Source: the human T2T-CHM13v2.0 reference genome, Homo sapiens
Reading direction: 5' to 3' (one strand)
Assembly: GCF_009914755.1 (NCBI RefSeq)
Contig: NC_060934.1
DNA length: 64,000 nt
Shown here: one piece after another, positions 53,576-59,764 of the stretch
How the letters are laid out: each line of letters starts with the position of its first letter
How positions within the stretch are numbered: the stretch's first letter is position 1
Translations under genes and position numbers: made by a program
The notes under the pieces: generated by a model
Told to the model about the DNA's origin: nothing
Seen by the model: the letters and a program-made list of their open reading frames with translations, nothing else
Database searches by the model: none

Positions 53576-55654
53576 TCTATACAATGGCTGAATTTCTACA
53601 TCTCAGCTCACCTAAGTCTATTTAAATCATCATATACTACTATGTCATATTAATGGAATCTAAATCTGCACTAGAACTACAACAGAAAACTCCAGGAACA
53701 TATATCCTTTCCAACTGCAGTCTCAGTTATAATCCCCAATGAAAACACACACTCCTACACCATCACGTGAAGCATTTCCTCCACTTCACAAGGCTTCAAT
53801 CAACTATCAAAAGAGGCAGCAAAGACCCTGATAGTGACGGCTACTGGGCACGAGTAGGAAAAAAGGATTTTGGCAACAGGAGAAGTTTAAGAAATATGTA
53901 TTAGGTGGAGGAGGTGTCAGCAGCTGCCTTACTGAAGGATTAGGCAGGAGAGGAAAGACTCTTGGATTAGGGCTTCTTTTGGTGACTATCAGGTTCCATG
54001 GGACTCTAACGGTGAGAGAATGTGGCCACCAATCACAATGAACCCTCAGACAAGTGAAGTGGACCTAGAAGGAAGGAGAAATATAGGATTTCATGATATT
54101 GGCTTTCCAGAGTACCGCTCTCCCATTTCTTGTCAACTCAGCGTGTCATCTTTTCCTACCATAGTTAAATATGTAACCTAGATCTTGCCTAAAGAGGAAA
54201 GGGGACTGATATTTATTTAATATCTACTAAACATCATGCACTGTGTTAAGCACATTGTATGCATCATCGCATTCACATTTTGTCTACATTTTACAAATGA
54301 AAACCTACTGTGGAAAGAGCAAGAGCAGTTTCCTCCCTGACCTGGATGAGTGACTTTAAATAAAGTGCTTAATCTCTCCAAGCACGGGTTCTTCATTTAT
54401 AAGTGAGGGCAACTATTCATACTTTGTAGGCTTGTACTAAGGACTAAAACATATAGGTCAAATCCTTAGCTCAGTGCCTGGCCCATAGTTGATGTTCAAT
54501 AAATGGTAGCTACATCACTACAATTACCATAATTGTTTTTATTTCAAAAATTGCCAGAGAAGCTTCCAAAAGCTCAACTACTTTGTAAGCAACTGAGTCA
54601 AAATTCAAATCTAGGTGCTTTTTCCCAAACTTCAACTCAAGAATAATCTGCGTATTTGAGTGTGTATGTGTTCACAGTTATATATATATGTGTGTACCTA
54701 TACAAATGCAATGTTCTTTATGACTTTTGGTTAAAGAACACAGTAATGTAGTAAAATTAATACTGGGCAGGAAATCAGTTCTAACCTTAGTTCTGCTACA
54801 AACCTTCAGTCAATCTTAATTTCTTAAAGTGCAAGCTTCCTTTAAATAAAGCAATATGAATACATAATCTCTAAGGACCCCAGGAGCTCTAAAATTCCAT
54901 AATTCTATGAGGAAATTTCATGGAGCAACTGAAGAGATACAGACAAAGAGGGGAATAAGTGAAAATTTAATATAATTATCAACTGAATTCATTGCTTTTG
55001 AAGTGTTCTTATGACACTTATGGAATTGTAAAACTATTGAAAGTTTTATATAGTTTAATCTATTAATGATTTATTGTCATGAATTCTGCCTTAGGTATCA
55101 TATTTAGAAAGCCTTTTCTCATTCTAATATAAAAATATGTACCTACATTTTCTTTGGGTTTTGATATTGTTCTGTTTGATATTTAAATCCTTAATTTACT
55201 TGTAAATTCTTTGGTATTTCAAATGGGGTATTTAGCTTTATTTTGTTTCAAATATTTAGTCAATTTTCTAATGTTATCCAAAAAATAATTCATCCTTTAC
55301 CCACAAATCTTTCATTTAAAAAAAATTTTTTTAAGAGACAGGATCTTGGAGCTTCTATATAGCTGAATATCTGGACGTTCCTAGAGACTGGGGCACAAGG
55401 GAGGGCTTGGAAACTCTGTACCCCTTCTCCCTGCATACCTTTTTATCTTCATGTGATGTGCCAGGCATGGGACACAGTGATTGAAAAGTTGACATAGAGC
55501 TTATATTCAAATAAGGGAGAGAGACCATGAATAAGTAAACTGATGATGTCTGAAATGAAAATCCTATGAATAGCTGACCAGAACTCTTACTGGTCAGCTG
55601 GTCAGGGCCCAAAAGAAATAGGCTTTCTCATCCACCATGCAGGCCCATGTGGAC

Positions 55655-56858
55655 ATGGTAGTGCAAAAGAGAAATAAGGGGCTGGAGTCCCTTGGCAAAG
55701 CAGATAAATACCTGCAAACTACCTTTTCAAAATGGAAGCCAGACTGTGACGGTGCCTTTTTTGAATGTGGAAAAGCAGGGCTTCCAAGCAAGCTGGCATG
55801 ATGTTGAAGGAGATGCAGAAACAACCAGTCTGCGTGATGTATCGAGAAAACAGCACCCCTGACCCAGCAACCTCAGAAGTGGTGGAGCAAGCTGGAAAGC
55901 TCATAGAAAATGTAGATCCAGAAAAGGCTGTACAATTGTATCAATAAACAGCAATGTGTTTGAAAATGTGCAATGCCTCAACAGGCAGTTGAACACTTAG
56001 GAAAAGCTTCAGGACTGCTAGTGTAAAGATGCAGGATTGATGGGGGAGCACTTTCTATTCAGAAAGAAAAATATTTTTAAGGAAATGGAGAATTATTCAA
56101 CTGGTTATAAGAAAAGAGTCGCTCAAGTCTTATTTCACTTACACAGTAATGACTATGCAGCTGGGACAGTGGTGGCAGGAGAGCTCCGGCATAGCAGGAG
56201 TCCATGGAGGTGATGGCTGAGCTGTACTGGATCAGCTCCCAGAAGGGTTTGCCCAGCAAGACCAAGCTGCATTTCAGAGGTCTGCAACTCTCCACTTTTC
56301 AAGCATATTGGCAATGATTATGCTAGCCCCAGCCTGAGTTTAGGGGTTCCAGAATGGGACATCAATAAATCATCAGGAATGGTTTGCACAGCCACATGAA
56401 TGTACTTAATGACACATTAAGTGTACACTTAAAGGGGGTTAAAATGATTTATTTTATGTTGTGTGTATTTTACCATAGTAAAAAAAATTAAGAAGAAGGA
56501 ATAAGAGGAAGAAGAGGAGTTGGAGAGAAGAAGAAGAGGAGGAGGAAAAAGAAGAGTTAGAAGAAAAAAGAGGAGAAACAGAAGGAAAAGAGGAGGAGGA
56601 AAATGGGGGAAAATTAGCAACACCAGTCATGGCTGGTGGCATCACCTCCATGGCTGCTGTTAAGGAAGACAAATATTCAGGACTATGCTAGTATTTTGCT
56701 TTGCAAATAAATAAATAATACATAGATAACAGAAAAAGTATCACATGGCGTTTCAGGGACTTGGAATTTGTTTAAGAGTATTCCATACTTCATTGTAGCC
56801 ACGGTTTGAATGCTAATACTCTAATTTTTAGTTATTAATTCCCCAAATTAAAAAAAAA
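55655..56858 (+). pseudogene. NAPGP1: NAPG (gamma-SNAP) processed pseudogene, probably NAPGP1
   Basis: Intronless. MVVQKRNKGLESLGKADKYLQTTFSKWKPDCDGAFFECGKA ~ NAPG MAAQKINEGLEHLAKAEKYLKTGFLKWKPDYDSAASEYGKA; QAGMMLKEMQK; AGKLIENVDPEKAVQLYQ* (premature stop at 55945); C-terminus KYSGLC* at 56689; frameshifts; A-tail at 56850-56858. The pseudogene symbol is from recall. Confidence 0.9.
56379..56612 (+). mobile_element. Old L1M 3' end plus (GAA/GGA) tail inserted in the NAPG pseudogene
   Basis: ggtttgcacagccacatgaatgtacttaatg...gtacacttaaa...ttttatgttgtgtgtattttaccatagtaaaaaaa; NAPG homology resumes at 56617. Confidence 0.75.
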
Positions 56859-59764
56859 GCCAGAGACAGACCTCACTCTATTACTTATCCTGTAATGCAG
56901 TGGCACCATCATAGTTCACTATAGCCTCCAACTCCTGGGTTTATGCAATCCTCCCACTTTAGCCTCTTGAATAGCTGAGGTTACAGACATGCACCACCAT
57001 GCCATGCACCACCACTCCAAGCCTAGATAACTTTCTTTTTTTGTATCTTTTTTTTTTTTGGTAGAAATGGAGGTCTTGCTATATTGCCCAGGCTAATCTT
57101 GAACACGTGGACTCAAGCAGTTCTCCCATTTTGGCCTTCCAAAGTGCTGGGACTATAGGCATGAGCCACCACACCCGGCCTACCCACAAATCTTAACCAA
57201 CCTTTATTGTGTTCTAAAGTCTTGGCATTAAAACGCATTTTATATTGGAAGATTTCATTATATTATTCTACCTTTGCACAGCTAGAATGAGCCCTACTTG
57301 GTGGATTATATTTGCTAATACTTAGCAATAATGCATCACAATTTATAAGTAAGCATGGTCTGTAGTTGTTTCTAACCTTCTAAATTTTTTAATATCAGGA
57401 TTATTCTAGCCTGTCAGGTGCATTAGAAAATTTCATTTTTAAATCCCCCTGTAATAGATTAGATAGCATAAGAATTGTCTATTCCTTGATGACTTGATAG
57501 AACTATAATCTATAACCCCTTTAAGCATGAATTTTTCATGAAGAGATGTTTTATTGTCTTTTAAACTCAATGATTTCTTCAGGTTTTTTTTATGACCTCT
57601 GGAGTTAATGTTGATCATTTATTATTTCCCAATAAAGCCTTCCATTTCATCCAGAGCGTTTGTAAAGCTGATATGCATTAAGAATCTCTAAGAGCACAAA
57701 GTAGTTTTTTTAAACTTTTTTGTTCAAGAATATGTTGCTGTTTAATTCATTCTTTTGTACAAATATTTTTCTAAGTTAGGCACTTTGAAAAATGCTAACA
57801 CACTGTCTTAAAGCATTCTCTTAAATTTGTTTTCAAATTATCTCTGCACAAAGAATTAAATTCCTTTTCTTAGTCTGAATCTTGTATATTACTTTTTCTG
57901 TTATAATTGTTAGTATTTATCCAAAGAATTATCTCTTGAACATATGTATTAATTCTTCTATTTTCCTAGATATTTTTTCTTTTAAAATATGAATTCTTAA
58001 AGACAGGCATTATAGACAACCAGTCTGTGGAGAAAATATTTTGAGAGGAGGAGGAATTTTATTTTGCCTCCTTCCATTTTATAGGAGGAACAGATTTATA
58101 CCCTGTTTACACATGTAGCTTATTGGATAATAACATGAACGAATAATATTGACTTAGAAACTTTATTTGGACTAAGTTATAAATTGTATTTCTTATTATA
58201 CAATAATGGGAATATAATTTCTACATTCCAAAACATGTACAGGTAGCCATTTGGACTATGAGACCTACAACAAAATATCAAGTATCTACATAGTACGGCA
58301 ACCAGGCATTTGGTGCTCTATGAATTAAAGGTCTCAATGAAGGGCTATACATTATATTATTTAGACTTCATCTGCAGGTTCTCTAAGCATGTTATAATTT
58401 CTATGAATTTCAGTTTCCATACCTGTAAAATGGAGATTATACACCTACTGTGCAAAGTTTGGGTAACAATTAGAGTTAACAGATAACCTGTCTCAAGACC
58501 CTTTTCCCAGTAGCTGTGGCCTCTTAAAGCCCCTACAAAATTTGAAGAAGAGATCTTTGGGCCTTGCAAAATCCTAGGTAATTTCACTTTATCAAAAGCC
58601 AAAGCATGTGAGTGTTTTAACTCATCTGAATCATAAAATAAATCATTACGAAGAGTTAACAGTCCTTGGATTAGAATAAACTACCTTTCATTGATTTCAA
58701 AGTGCATTTTTGTTTTACATTTTTGTATCTCTACTCAGAATGCTCCTTAAAATTGATGATGTCTTAAAAATATAACTGACATTGCTTTTCTTGTCTAGGA
58801 GTATGTAATACAATGGTACATTTTACAAATGAGGACATCTTAGGGTAAAAACATACTGTAATACCTTCCTCAGTTGTTTTCCAATTTACCACCCCCTTCC
58901 TAGGAAAATCCACACGCCTTAATGAATTGCTATAGTCATTAGCAAAGGGAGTAAGTTTTGATGTTTGTCTTGTCTGTGGGCCTTGTTTCCCTCTGACTCA
59001 TAAGCTCTAATATACTCCAGCCATTCAAAATACCAGGTCCACATACATAGGTGCACTTACAAAAGGTCCTCATTGCACACCATTGAAGAATCACATACCC
59101 TAAATTCGAGATTTTAAACCTCAGATACAGATAGCCTAGGTCCCTACCAACAGTCTCACAAAAAATGCAAACCTCAGGGGATGGTACTCCAAAGTAATTA
59201 ACCAAAACAAGAGTAGTTGTTATGCAAATACCAAGGAATTTAATCTCCTTAAGAAAACAATAAATTCCTGGTTCAGACCTAAAGGCACAAATTTTAAAAT
59301 GTGTGTAGATTACAGACTCAGCTCAGCTCCATTCTAAAAGATGCATTCTCTATAAGACCTCCCTAACACCTGGAATACAAGCAGCTGGGTAAACATCCTG
59401 GCCATGCAGTATGGGCAGCATGAGTCAGTTAGAGGGCAAGGTTCTTTCTCTTGATCCGCCCACATACCTTGGGGGTGTTAGAAGCCTTGATGGAAGTAGG
59501 AGATGAAGTGTTTCATGGAAAAACACCTACTTCCGCATGATAAGGCAAGGAGAGGGAGTGAAAGAGAAGATGGGCCCTACCCTTCTGCAGGGCCCTAAAG
59601 CCACTACCAAGACAGGAGAAGGGAAAGCCCCTTTATTTTGTGTCCTGGGATTGGAGAAATAATTTTTTAAAGACCCTAAAATCATAAATATTACTATACA
59701 AGTATGTGTGTAAACAGAGATGGATTTCTGTTCAATGAATTAAATCATAAATGAAAAGAGAAAT

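What the first reader, a model, noticed from the sequence alone, without database searches (positions are those of the whole stretch)
55298..57194. Nested insertion: a chimeric LTR-L2-NAPG transcript retroposed into an old Alu, possibly a retrocopy of a retrocopy
Seen: (1) A perfect 14-bp direct repeat, tacccacaaatctt (55298 and 57181), brackets a minus-strand AluJ-type element. (2) The Alu's T-tail and first bases (ttttttt|aagagacaggatctt, to ~55347) are separated from its body (agagacagacctcactc..., from 56862) by ~1.5 kb. (3) The agagacag.. segment occurs on both sides of the insert, follows a TT|AAGA L1-endonuclease-like site, and is preceded on the right by an A-tail (56850-56858), as expected for L1-mediated retroposition. 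(4) The insert is more than NAPG mRNA: a MER21-like LTR piece (~55348-55440), an L2-like piece (~55455-55545), then a heavily decayed NAPG copy that carries an L1M-type 3' fragment. Established: L2 and L1M families predate AluJ, so they could not have jumped into this Alu on their own. Inference: the template was a transcript from another locus, an older NAPG retrocopy read from an LTR promoter, so this would be a second-generation retrocopy.
Basis: partly seen in the sequence, partly recalled or inferred. Interest (0 to 1): 0.8.

Follow-up and report, generated by a model that had tools for sequence, protein, structure and literature searches.

The report
Retrocopy of a retrocopy inside Alu
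The NAPG pseudogene on chromosome 10 was copied not from the NAPG gene but from an RNA of an older NAPG pseudogene on chromosome 6, and it landed inside an old Alu; this is a clean but ordinary example of secondary retroposition.

Summary
A perfect 14-bp duplication (55298, 57181) brackets a minus-strand, J-like Alu. That Alu is split by a 1.5-kb insert (55348-56858) with an A9 tail, a duplicated Alu end (agagacag...) and a TT|AAGA target.

Both copies share:
- about 125 nt of chr6 flank upstream of the NAPG 5' UTR
- loss of NAPG exon 3
- a 24-27-nt deletion in exon 5
- the same retroposon 3' fragment plus GA repeat inside the last coding exon

The chr6 copy is the primary insertion. It has its own 16-17-bp target duplication at the flank|5'UTR junction and after its A8 tail. 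It also follows the NAPG 3' UTR about 430 nt past the chr10 end. NAPGP1 is therefore a second-generation retrocopy, made after NAPGP2 had already decayed by about 9%.

Still open: the first ~100 nt (55348-55449) are a piece of an LTR family that does not lie next to the chr6 flank. It was joined either by splicing or by reverse-transcriptase template switching.

Secondary retroposition is already in print, so this is a new member of a known kind. RefSeq annotates only about half of NAPGP1.

The parts
55298..55311 (.). Left copy of the 14-bp target-site duplication of the host Alu
   Evidence: perfect repeat, only 2 copies in the window, 0.02 expected by chance.
55312..55332 (-). Decayed A-rich tail of the host Alu (reads tcatttaaaaaaaattttttt on the + strand)
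   Evidence: read directly. It lies between the outer duplication and the Alu 3' end.
55333..55347 (-). Last ~13 nt of the host Alu, which is also the left copy of the inner target duplication (aagagacaggatctt), after TT|AAGA
   Evidence: The Alu 3' end as aligned to the local Alu consensus reappears at 56862.
55348..55449 (+). LTR-family piece at the 5' end of the insert; source locus not identified
   Evidence: It is 63-77 of ~102 identical to 7 genomic copies. Those copies carry a TATA-like cATAAAA about 27 nt upstream of where the piece starts, and an AATAAA downstream of where it ends. The piece is not present next to the chr6 flank.
55450..55574 (+). Copy of the chr6 genomic flank upstream of NAPGP2 (L2-like, name recalled). 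55558-55574 is a copy of NAPGP2's upstream target duplication.
   Evidence: 117/125 identical to chr6 over 55454-55578. In chr6 the same sequence continues further upstream. The duplication match is shown.
55575..55654 (+). Decayed NAPG 5' UTR
   Evidence: weak but collinear match to chr18 just upstream of the ATG at chr18:10688250. The chr7 fragment, which has a clearer NAPG 5' UTR, backs the assignment.
55655..56377 (+). NAPG coding sequence, exons 1, 2 and 4 to last, without introns. Exon 3 is missing at 55778|55779, and there is a 24-27-nt deletion after about 55827.
   Evidence: 10 collinear exon matches to chr18, with AG/GT at every chr18 boundary. RefSeq NAPGP1 covers 55655-56375 only.
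56378..56487 (+). 5'-truncated 3' end of a poly(A) retroposon (L1M-like, name recalled) with an A8 run. It was inserted into the first-generation copy.
   Evidence: 391 first-look candidates, 40 scored at 77-85% identity; in 6 of 6 fetched copies the match runs into an A-rich tail. It sits at the same position in chr6 (83/103 identical). It is absent from the NAPG exon on chr18.
56488..56617 (+). GA-rich simple repeat, followed by the decayed right copy (about 56591-56617) of the ~27-nt duplication made by the retroposon fragment
   Evidence: (families D1, D2). It is shared with chr6.
56618..56849 (+). End of the NAPG coding sequence (stop codon at 56689-56691) and the proximal 3' UTR
   Evidence: matches chr18:10712256-10712520 and chr6.
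56850..56861 (+). A9 tail of the second-generation retrocopy, plus gcc
   Evidence: The tail starts 33 nt after the position of an AATAAA that is kept in NAPG and in chr6. Chr6 and NAPG have no A-run here and continue as 3' UTR.
56862..57180 (-). Body of the host Alu (J-like). 56862 to about 56875 is the right copy of the inner target duplication.
   Evidence: 207/277 identical to a local J-like consensus. It is the most diverged of 74 Alus compared.
57181..57194 (.). Right copy of the 14-bp target-site duplication of the host Alu

Best explanation
There were three successive L1-type retropositions. (1) An exon-3-less NAPG mRNA, polyadenylated at a site about 700 nt into the last exon, was inserted on chr6. 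This is today's NAPGP2, T2T chr6:30824186-30827273, minus strand. It landed in an old L2-like repeat and made a 16-17-bp target duplication. (2) While that copy decayed, a short 5'-truncated retroposon 3' end with its A-tail inserted into its last coding exon, and a GA repeat grew beside it. (3) A Pol II transcript of this dead locus was then copied. The transcript carried about 125 nt of chr6 flank upstream of the retrocopy. It was cleaved at a more proximal NAPG AATAAA. It was reverse-transcribed by L1 at a TT|AAGA site in the 3' end of an old J-like Alu on chr10, giving NAPGP1 (55348-56858). Later events were two S-like Alu insertions into the shared part of the chr6 copy and ordinary neutral decay of both copies. 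The first ~100 nt of the chr10 insert come from the start of an LTR-initiated RNA. I think it most likely was a first exon spliced onto the NAPGP2 transcript (about 45%). The alternative is that L1 reverse transcriptase switched template onto it (about 35%). Shown: the parent-daughter relation and its direction, the retroposition hallmarks and the order of events. Inferred: the dates and how the LTR piece was joined.
For: The second locus is unique. The leader query hit only chr6:30827089-30827273 at 82% over query 107-304. The reverse query with the chr6 flank hit only itself and chr10, at 94% over 124 nt. Shared derived characters appear in the 3-way alignment (HSPs). These are the flank, the exon-3 loss at an exact exon2|exon4 junction, the 24-27-nt exon-5 deletion and a 3-nt insertion. 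The retroposon fragment plus GA repeat is also shared, at the same site; one HSP covers 55784-56818 at 819/1042. Of 691 coding-part sites, 72 are shared by both copies against NAPG, 48 are chr10-only and 54 are chr6-only. None of this is in the NAPG gene: chr10 versus 36 kb of chr18 gives 11 collinear exon HSPs, the first starting at 55648. For direction, chr6 follows the NAPG 3' UTR to chr18:10712949, against 10712520 for chr10. Chr6 ends with CCAATAAAAG...A8 and is flanked by aaaa(a/t)cctatg(c/a)atagc upstream and aaaatctatgaattgc right after the A8. The chr6 flank also runs on upstream of the shared part. For RNA-mediated insertion at chr10, there is an A9 tail where chr6 and NAPG have none, 33 nt after a conserved AATAAA. 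The Alu end is duplicated, and the target is TT|AAGA. Decay is neutral: chr10-only changes are 7.0, 6.7 and 7.1% at codon positions 1, 2 and 3. Shared changes are 8.9 and 9.1% at positions 1 and 2. For the LTR piece, its start lies about 27 nt after a TATA-like motif in family copies, and it ends where 4 of 7 copies read GT.
Against: The LTR piece is not found upstream of NAPGP2 at useful identity. The only same-strand copy in the 44 kb examined upstream (chr6:30840914-30841150) is 63/102 identical and lacks the first ~20 nt. The best genomic copy (chr6:30669609-30669709, 77/102) lies on the wrong, downstream side. Chr6 has no AG at the flank boundary. The flank is much less diverged between the two loci than the rest (8/125 versus 181/1014 mismatches, Fisher p 5e-4), which a single copying event does not predict. 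The host Alu is 25% diverged from its local consensus against about 7% for the insert's own branch, which is an uneven clock. That the flank is L2 and continues past the chr6 duplication rests on recall only (searches found no relatives). No other species could be examined.
Confidence: 0.9

Rival explanations
1. The LTR piece was added by template switching. L1 reverse transcriptase reached the 5' end of an NAPGP2 transcript that started in the chr6 flank near chr6:30827273. It then jumped onto an unrelated LTR-initiated RNA and copied it to its cap, giving a bipartite chimeric retrocopy.
For: There is no AG acceptor at the chr6 boundary. No adequately similar LTR was found upstream of NAPGP2. 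Family copies elsewhere are as close as the syntenic ones (73-77 of ~102). The piece starts at the predicted LTR start site, which copying to the RNA 5' end would also give. Chimeras made by L1 template switching are documented (search listing; abstracts only of 10.1101/2025.02.02.635956 and PMC4476161).
Against: The piece ends exactly where 4 of 7 family copies have GT, which fits a splice donor. About 40 Myr of decay could have erased an acceptor. The switch point would have to be an arbitrary internal site 100 nt into the LTR RNA.
Confidence: 0.35
2. Both the chr6 and chr10 copies are daughters of a third, now lost or undetected, master retrocopy that carried the flank and the retroposon fragment.
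For: The two copies are about equally far from NAPG (547/691 and 553/691). The LTR piece has no source at chr6.
Against: The chr6 copy has its own target duplication placed exactly at the flank|5'UTR junction and after its A-tail. A daughter of a flank-containing transcript would instead have its duplication outside the flank. The flank continues upstream in chr6. Genome searches with the leader, the NAPG part and the chr6 flank found no third locus.
Confidence: 0.05
3. The chr10 copy arose by DNA-level duplication or gene conversion from chr6, not through RNA.
For: Non-genic flank is shared, as in segmental duplications.
Against: Homology ends 3' at an A9 tail that is absent from chr6, 33 nt after an AATAAA. 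The insert is bounded by a short duplication of the Alu end at a TT|AAGA site. The two Alus inside the shared part of chr6 are absent from chr10.
Confidence: 0.02

Closest known systems
L1-mediated processed pseudogenes (retrocopies) of mRNAs
   Same: No introns, a 3' A-tail after an AATAAA, a short target-site duplication, a TT|AAAA-like target and neutral decay at all three codon positions.
   Different: The template was not the parental gene's mRNA. It was a transcript of an already dead retrocopy, so the copy carries foreign flank, a retroposon fragment and a GA repeat.
Secondary retroposition of retrogenes (e.g. RNF113B history, PMC3002245 abstract; LTR-mediated cases, PMC5131818 passages)
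   Same: A retroposed copy itself serves as template for a further retroposition.
   Different: Here the template was a non-coding, frame-broken pseudogene rather than a functional retrogene. The case is proven by carried-over flank and internal insertions rather than by phylogeny alone. The chr10 insertion has L1 hallmarks, not LTR ones.
Chimeric retrocopies formed by L1 template switching (U6/L1 and mRNA chimeras; listing, abstracts only)
   Same: Two unrelated RNA-derived parts in the same orientation within one target duplication, with a single 3' A-tail.
   Different: The 5' partner is the first ~100 nt of an LTR-initiated RNA, not a small nuclear RNA. A spliced origin is not excluded.
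LTR-promoted chimeric transcripts of retrocopies (retrocopies recruiting new 5' exons; review PMC5470649, passages)
   Same: A retrocopy acquires an upstream non-coding first exon and a foreign promoter. The LTR piece starts about 27 nt after a TATA-like motif.
   Different: The promoter LTR cannot be located upstream of NAPGP2 in the present human genome.

Membership tests
L1-mediated processed pseudogene | Exons of the parent joined without introns | tested here: met
   10 collinear exon matches to chr18, with AG/GT at all chr18 boundaries and exact junctions in chr10.
L1-mediated processed pseudogene | A-tail at the 3' end downstream of a polyadenylation signal | tested here: met
   A9 at 56850-56858, 33 nt after the position of an AATAAA kept in NAPG and chr6. 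The hexamer itself is damaged in chr10.
L1-mediated processed pseudogene | Target-site duplication flanking the insert, and an L1 endonuclease-type target | tested here: met
   agagacag is perfect on both sides and reaches about 13-15 nt allowing decay. Both copies are the 3' end of one Alu. The target is TT|AAGA. 3 nt (gcc) between tail and duplication are unexplained.
Second-generation (secondary) retrocopy | Carries sequence that flanks the first-generation copy and is not in the parental gene | tested here: met
   55450-55574 matches the chr6 flank (117/125 over 55454-55578). There is no match in 36 kb of the NAPG locus.
Second-generation (secondary) retrocopy | Shares post-insertion lesions of the first copy (indels, TE insertions, substitutions) | tested here: met
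   same retroposon fragment plus GA repeat, same exon-5 deletion, and 72 shared substitutions in 691 sites.
Second-generation (secondary) retrocopy | The first copy is a primary insertion with its own tail and duplication, and holds parental sequence that the daughter lacks | tested here: met
   chr6 runs about 430 nt further along the NAPG 3' UTR, ends with AATAAA plus A8, and has a 16-17-nt duplication (15 of 17 against the chr10-preserved version).
Second-generation (secondary) retrocopy | Presence and absence across species: parent older than daughter, and an empty daughter site with an intact Alu | not testable with these tools
   Only this human assembly is held. No other primate or mammal genome is available.
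Alu (host), J-type | 7SL-derived dimer with A-rich linker and tail and its own target duplication | tested here: met
   7SL model hits on both arms, below gathering; end-to-end alignment; 14-bp duplication.
Alu (host), J-type | Subfamily-diagnostic positions of AluJ | tested here: inconclusive
   the host agrees better with a consensus of the 7 most diverged local Alus than with the all-Alu consensus, but is only 207/277 identical to it. No curated subfamily consensus is on hand.
LTR-promoted spliced chimeric transcript | LTR exon from the start site to a GT donor, joined to an AG acceptor at the source locus, with the LTR upstream on the same strand | tested here: inconclusive
   The start lies about 27 nt after a TATA-like motif, and GT is present at the end in 4 of 7 copies. 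There is no AG at the chr6 boundary. The upstream LTR is only 63/102 identical.
   No repeat library is held. blastn and nhmmer against about 300 kb of held DNA found no relatives of the flank. Pfam scans of 14 ORFs upstream of 6 copies of the retroposon fragment found no L1 domain; the one weak hit, XTBD, was below its cut-off.

The most novel reading that the evidence does not exclude
The LTR first exon really came from chr6:30669609-30669709. This is the best genomic match to 55348-55449. It is on the same strand as NAPGP2 but 157 kb on its downstream side. If so, the template RNA joined exons in an order the present genome cannot give by cis-splicing. It would then be a fossil of trans-splicing or exon scrambling, or of a since-collapsed tandem duplication of this MHC class I segment, preserved only because L1 copied it to chr10. 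The best of about 6 scored family hits falling within 160 kb of the parent locus is unlikely by chance: roughly 6 x 1e-4 if copies are spread evenly, an assumption I did not test.
Probability: 0.1. Interest if true: 0.5.

Novelty: new member of a known kind. Interest (0 to 1): 0.3.

Why it matters
The locus is an unusually well-documented case of a dead processed pseudogene that was still transcribed and copied again. The daughter preserves a snapshot of the parent locus from tens of millions of years ago. That snapshot includes the flank, the parent's upstream target duplication, a retroposon fragment and a microsatellite. It can therefore be used to polarise changes at NAPGP2.

It also shows that retrocopy catalogues which assign every copy to the intron-containing gene can mis-assign parents and ages.

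In practice, the RefSeq span of NAPGP1 (55655-56375) covers only about half of the element (55348-56858). The NAPGP1-NAPGP2 parent-daughter relation appears in no paper found by my searches: NAPGP1 0 papers, NAPGP2 1 GWAS paper.

Nothing suggests a present function.

Tried and rejected
- **Genuine NAPG upstream region as source of the leader: rejected.** No match of 55348-55647 in chr18:10684001-10720000. Only 55575-55654 is 5' UTR.
- **chr10 as parent of chr6: rejected.** Chr6 has more NAPG 3' UTR and its own duplication.
- **LTR at chr6:30840914-30841150 (13.7 kb upstream, same strand) as the promoter: not supported.** It is 63/102 identical and its first ~20 nt are missing. Only 44 kb upstream of NAPGP2 were examined.
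- **Naming the flank as L2, or showing it continues past the chr6 insertion: failed.** Genome searches with the chr6 flanks found only themselves and chr10. blastn and nhmmer on held DNA found nothing.
- **Naming the retroposon fragment as L1 through ORF2 domains upstream of 6 other copies: failed.** 14 ORFs gave no L1 domain, and one sub-threshold XTBD hit.
- **APOBEC-type editing as the reason for the host Alu's high divergence: rejected.** G>A 19 and C>T 18 are symmetric between strands.
- **Editing or a long chr10 branch as the reason for the divergent NAPG part: rejected.** The chr10-only and chr6-only branches are similar (48 versus 54) with an ordinary spectrum.
- **Other Rfam families in 54500-58000:** only chance-level hits.
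- **Earlier findings of this scan:** not open.
- **Literature phrases for 'retrocopy of a retrocopy' and variants:** 0 papers. 'Secondary retroposition' found 3.
Full report
**Observation.** The window is T2T chr10:89528001-89592000.
- The 14-mer TACCCACAAATCTT occurs at 55298 and 57181 and nowhere else in the window. Chance expectation is 0.02, and 0 of 100 shuffles gave two matches.
- The two copies bracket a minus-strand Alu. The 7SL model matches both arms: 57063-57179 at 44.2 bits and 56854-57007 at 17.8 bits, both below the gathering score.
- The body 56862-57180 aligns end to end with 73 other near-full-length Alus from the window and fetched loci.
- After the left duplication come a decayed A-tail (55312-55332) and the last ~13 nt of the Alu (aagagacaggatctt, 55333-55347). 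The Alu end then starts again at 56862, preceded by A9 plus gcc.
- So a ~1.5-kb insert (55348-56858) sits inside the Alu 3' end. It has a tail, a duplicated target (8 perfect bases, about 13-15 allowing decay) and a TT|AAGA site.

**The source locus.** The human assembly itself could be searched.
- The leader (55348-55654) hit one place at 82% over query 107-304: chr6:30827089-30827273, minus strand. It also hit six 75-82% matches to its first ~87 nt.
- The NAPG part hit the same chr6 place at 84% and 80%, the NAPG exons on chr18 at 78-86%, and a short chr7 fragment. The 3' part behaved likewise.
- A GWAS paper places the annotated pseudogene NAPGP2 at chr6:30961632 in its coordinates (passages read). 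That fits this locus.
- I fetched chr6:30821001-30831000 (L020) and chr18:10684001-10720000. I then aligned chr10, chr6 and the chr18 exons.

**What the two copies share against NAPG**.
- About 125 nt upstream of the NAPG 5' UTR (55450-55574).
- An exact exon2|exon4 junction, meaning exon 3 is missing. This shifts the frame.
- A 24-27-nt deletion in exon 5 and a 3-nt insertion.
- A ~110-nt retroposon 3' end with an A-run, followed by a GA repeat and a decayed ~27-nt duplication of the NAPG sequence around the insertion point. All of this sits inside the last coding exon.
- The chr18 exon is uninterrupted at that point, and the leader has no match in 36 kb of the NAPG locus.
- Among 691 three-way coding-part sites: 499 are identical in all, 72 are shared by the two copies against NAPG, 48 are chr10-only, 54 are chr6-only and 18 differ in all three.

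**Direction.**
- The chr6 copy follows the NAPG 3' UTR to chr18:10712949, whereas chr10 stops at about 10712520.
- Chr6 ends with CCAATAAAAG...A8. It is followed by aaaatctatgaattgc. This repeats the sequence lying exactly at the flank|5'UTR junction, which reads aaaaacctatgcatagc in chr6 and aaaatcctatgaatagc as preserved in chr10. The match is 15 of 17.
- The chr6 flank also continues upstream of the shared part.
- Chr6 is therefore a primary NAPG retrocopy. Chr10 carries a copy of its flank, including its upstream target duplication.
- At the chr10 3' end an A9 tail begins 33 nt after an AATAAA conserved in NAPG and chr6. Both of those continue there as 3' UTR without an A-run.
- This is RNA-mediated copying of a chr6 transcript that used a proximal polyadenylation signal.
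- Two S-like Alus inside the shared part of chr6 (L020 5648-5940 and 4351-4664) are absent from chr10. A J-like Alu lies in the chr6-only 3' UTR part.

**Timing (inference).**
- Chr10-only changes are 7.0, 6.7 and 7.1% at codon positions 1, 2 and 3. Chr6-only changes are 5.4, 10.2 and 9.8%. Shared changes are 8.9, 9.1 and 14.6%.
- Both copies have therefore decayed neutrally. The first copy had already accumulated about 9% change before it was copied.
- With a recalled neutral rate of about 2.2e-9 per site per year, the second event falls roughly 35-45 Myr ago and the first roughly 75-90 Myr ago. These are rough figures.
The old repeats did not jump into the Alu; they travelled inside the template.

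**The first ~100 nt (55348-55449).**
- This piece is not at the chr6 locus. It belongs to a dispersed family.
- Seven copies were aligned. They are 63-77 of ~102 identical to the piece, which is no closer than they are to each other.
- These copies have a TATA-like cATAAAA about 27 nt upstream of where the chr10 piece starts. They have an AATAAA shortly after where it ends, which is LTR-like. 4 of 7 read GT exactly at its end.
- That pattern fits a first exon running from an LTR start site to a donor.
- Against this, chr6 has no AG at the boundary. The only same-strand copy found in the 44 kb upstream is 63/102 identical with its first ~20 nt missing. A focused genome search gave the same six hits and no closer one.
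- The best copy (77/102) is chr6:30669609-30669709, 157 kb away on the downstream side.
- Splicing and L1 template switching both remain possible.

**Other checks.**
- The retroposon fragment (56378-56487) is highly repeated: 391 first-look candidates, 40 scored at 77-85%. In 6 of 6 fetched copies the match runs into an A-rich tail.
- Its L1 identity is recalled, because Pfam on 14 upstream ORFs found no L1 domain.
- The L2 name for the flank is also recalled (searches found nothing).
- The host Alu is the most diverged of 74 Alus (25.1% at non-CpG columns). It is 207/277 identical to a consensus of the 7 most diverged others, which are themselves 82-90% identical to it.
- Its changes are GC>AT on both strands, so strand-specific editing is not indicated.

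**Unexplained.** The flank differs between chr10 and chr6 at 8 of 125 sites, against 181 of 1014 for the rest (Fisher p 5e-4). The lowest count in any 125-site window elsewhere is 13. Within the 17-nt duplication, both differences are chr6-specific as judged by the downstream duplication copy, so simple constraint on chr6 does not obviously explain it.

**Literature.**
- NAPGP1: 0 papers. NAPGP2: 1 GWAS paper.
- Six phrases for 'retrocopy of a retrocopy' and six variants: 0 papers.
- 'Secondary retroposition' appears in 3 papers. These include the RNF113B history (PMC3002245, abstract read) and LTR-mediated retrocopies (PMC5131818, passages read).
- The review PMC5470649 (passages read) covers chimeric retrogenes and new 5' exons.
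- The kind is therefore known; this instance appears undescribed in the searched library.

**Verdict.** It is a tidy, well-supported example of secondary retroposition nested in an Alu. One open detail remains (the origin of the LTR piece), and there is no sign of function. Interest is modest.

Noticed in passing
L014 1455-1617 (chr7:44660327-44660489): A third NAPG-derived fragment: 5' UTR plus exons 1 and 2 joined without the intron, then unrelated sequence. It is closer to NAPG (81% and 89%) than to the chr10 copy (71%), so it is an independent event. It is truncated at the 3' side, which is unusual for a retrocopy.
   Followed up: partly
window 55454-55578 vs L020 6273-6150: The carried-over chr6 flank is far less diverged between the two loci (8/125) than the NAPG, retroposon and 3' UTR parts (181/1014; Fisher p 5e-4). 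No explanation was found.
   Followed up: partly
window 56862-57180: The host Alu is the most diverged of 74 Alus compared (25% at non-CpG columns). It has a 15-nt tandem duplication (56988-57017) and an expanded T-rich linker (57032-57060). Its excess changes are GC>AT on both strands.
   Followed up: partly
L025 / chr6:30669609-30669709 (-): The best genomic match to the LTR piece lies only 157 kb from NAPGP2 on the same strand, but on its downstream side. This is either a coincidence or a trace of rearrangement or unusual RNA joining.
   Followed up: partly
window 55655-56375 (RefSeq NAPGP1 span): The annotated pseudogene span covers only the part up to the retroposon fragment. The element runs 55348-56858 and includes the end of the coding sequence and the 3' UTR after the GA repeat.
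   Followed up: yes
window 56488-56600 and L020 4960-4860: The GA-rich simple repeat is present at both loci. It therefore predates the second retroposition and has persisted, with length changes, in both copies.
   Followed up: partly
window 56202-56215 and 56640-56653: There is a perfect 14-nt inverted repeat inside the NAPG-derived part (I12). From the aligned NAPG row, read by eye, NAPG seems to hold a shorter complementary core at the same two places, so this is probably a chance extension.
   Followed up: no
L020 6440-6690 (chr6:30827440-30827690): A long CT/CCTT-rich low-complexity tract lies just upstream of the chr6 flank repeat.
   Followed up: no
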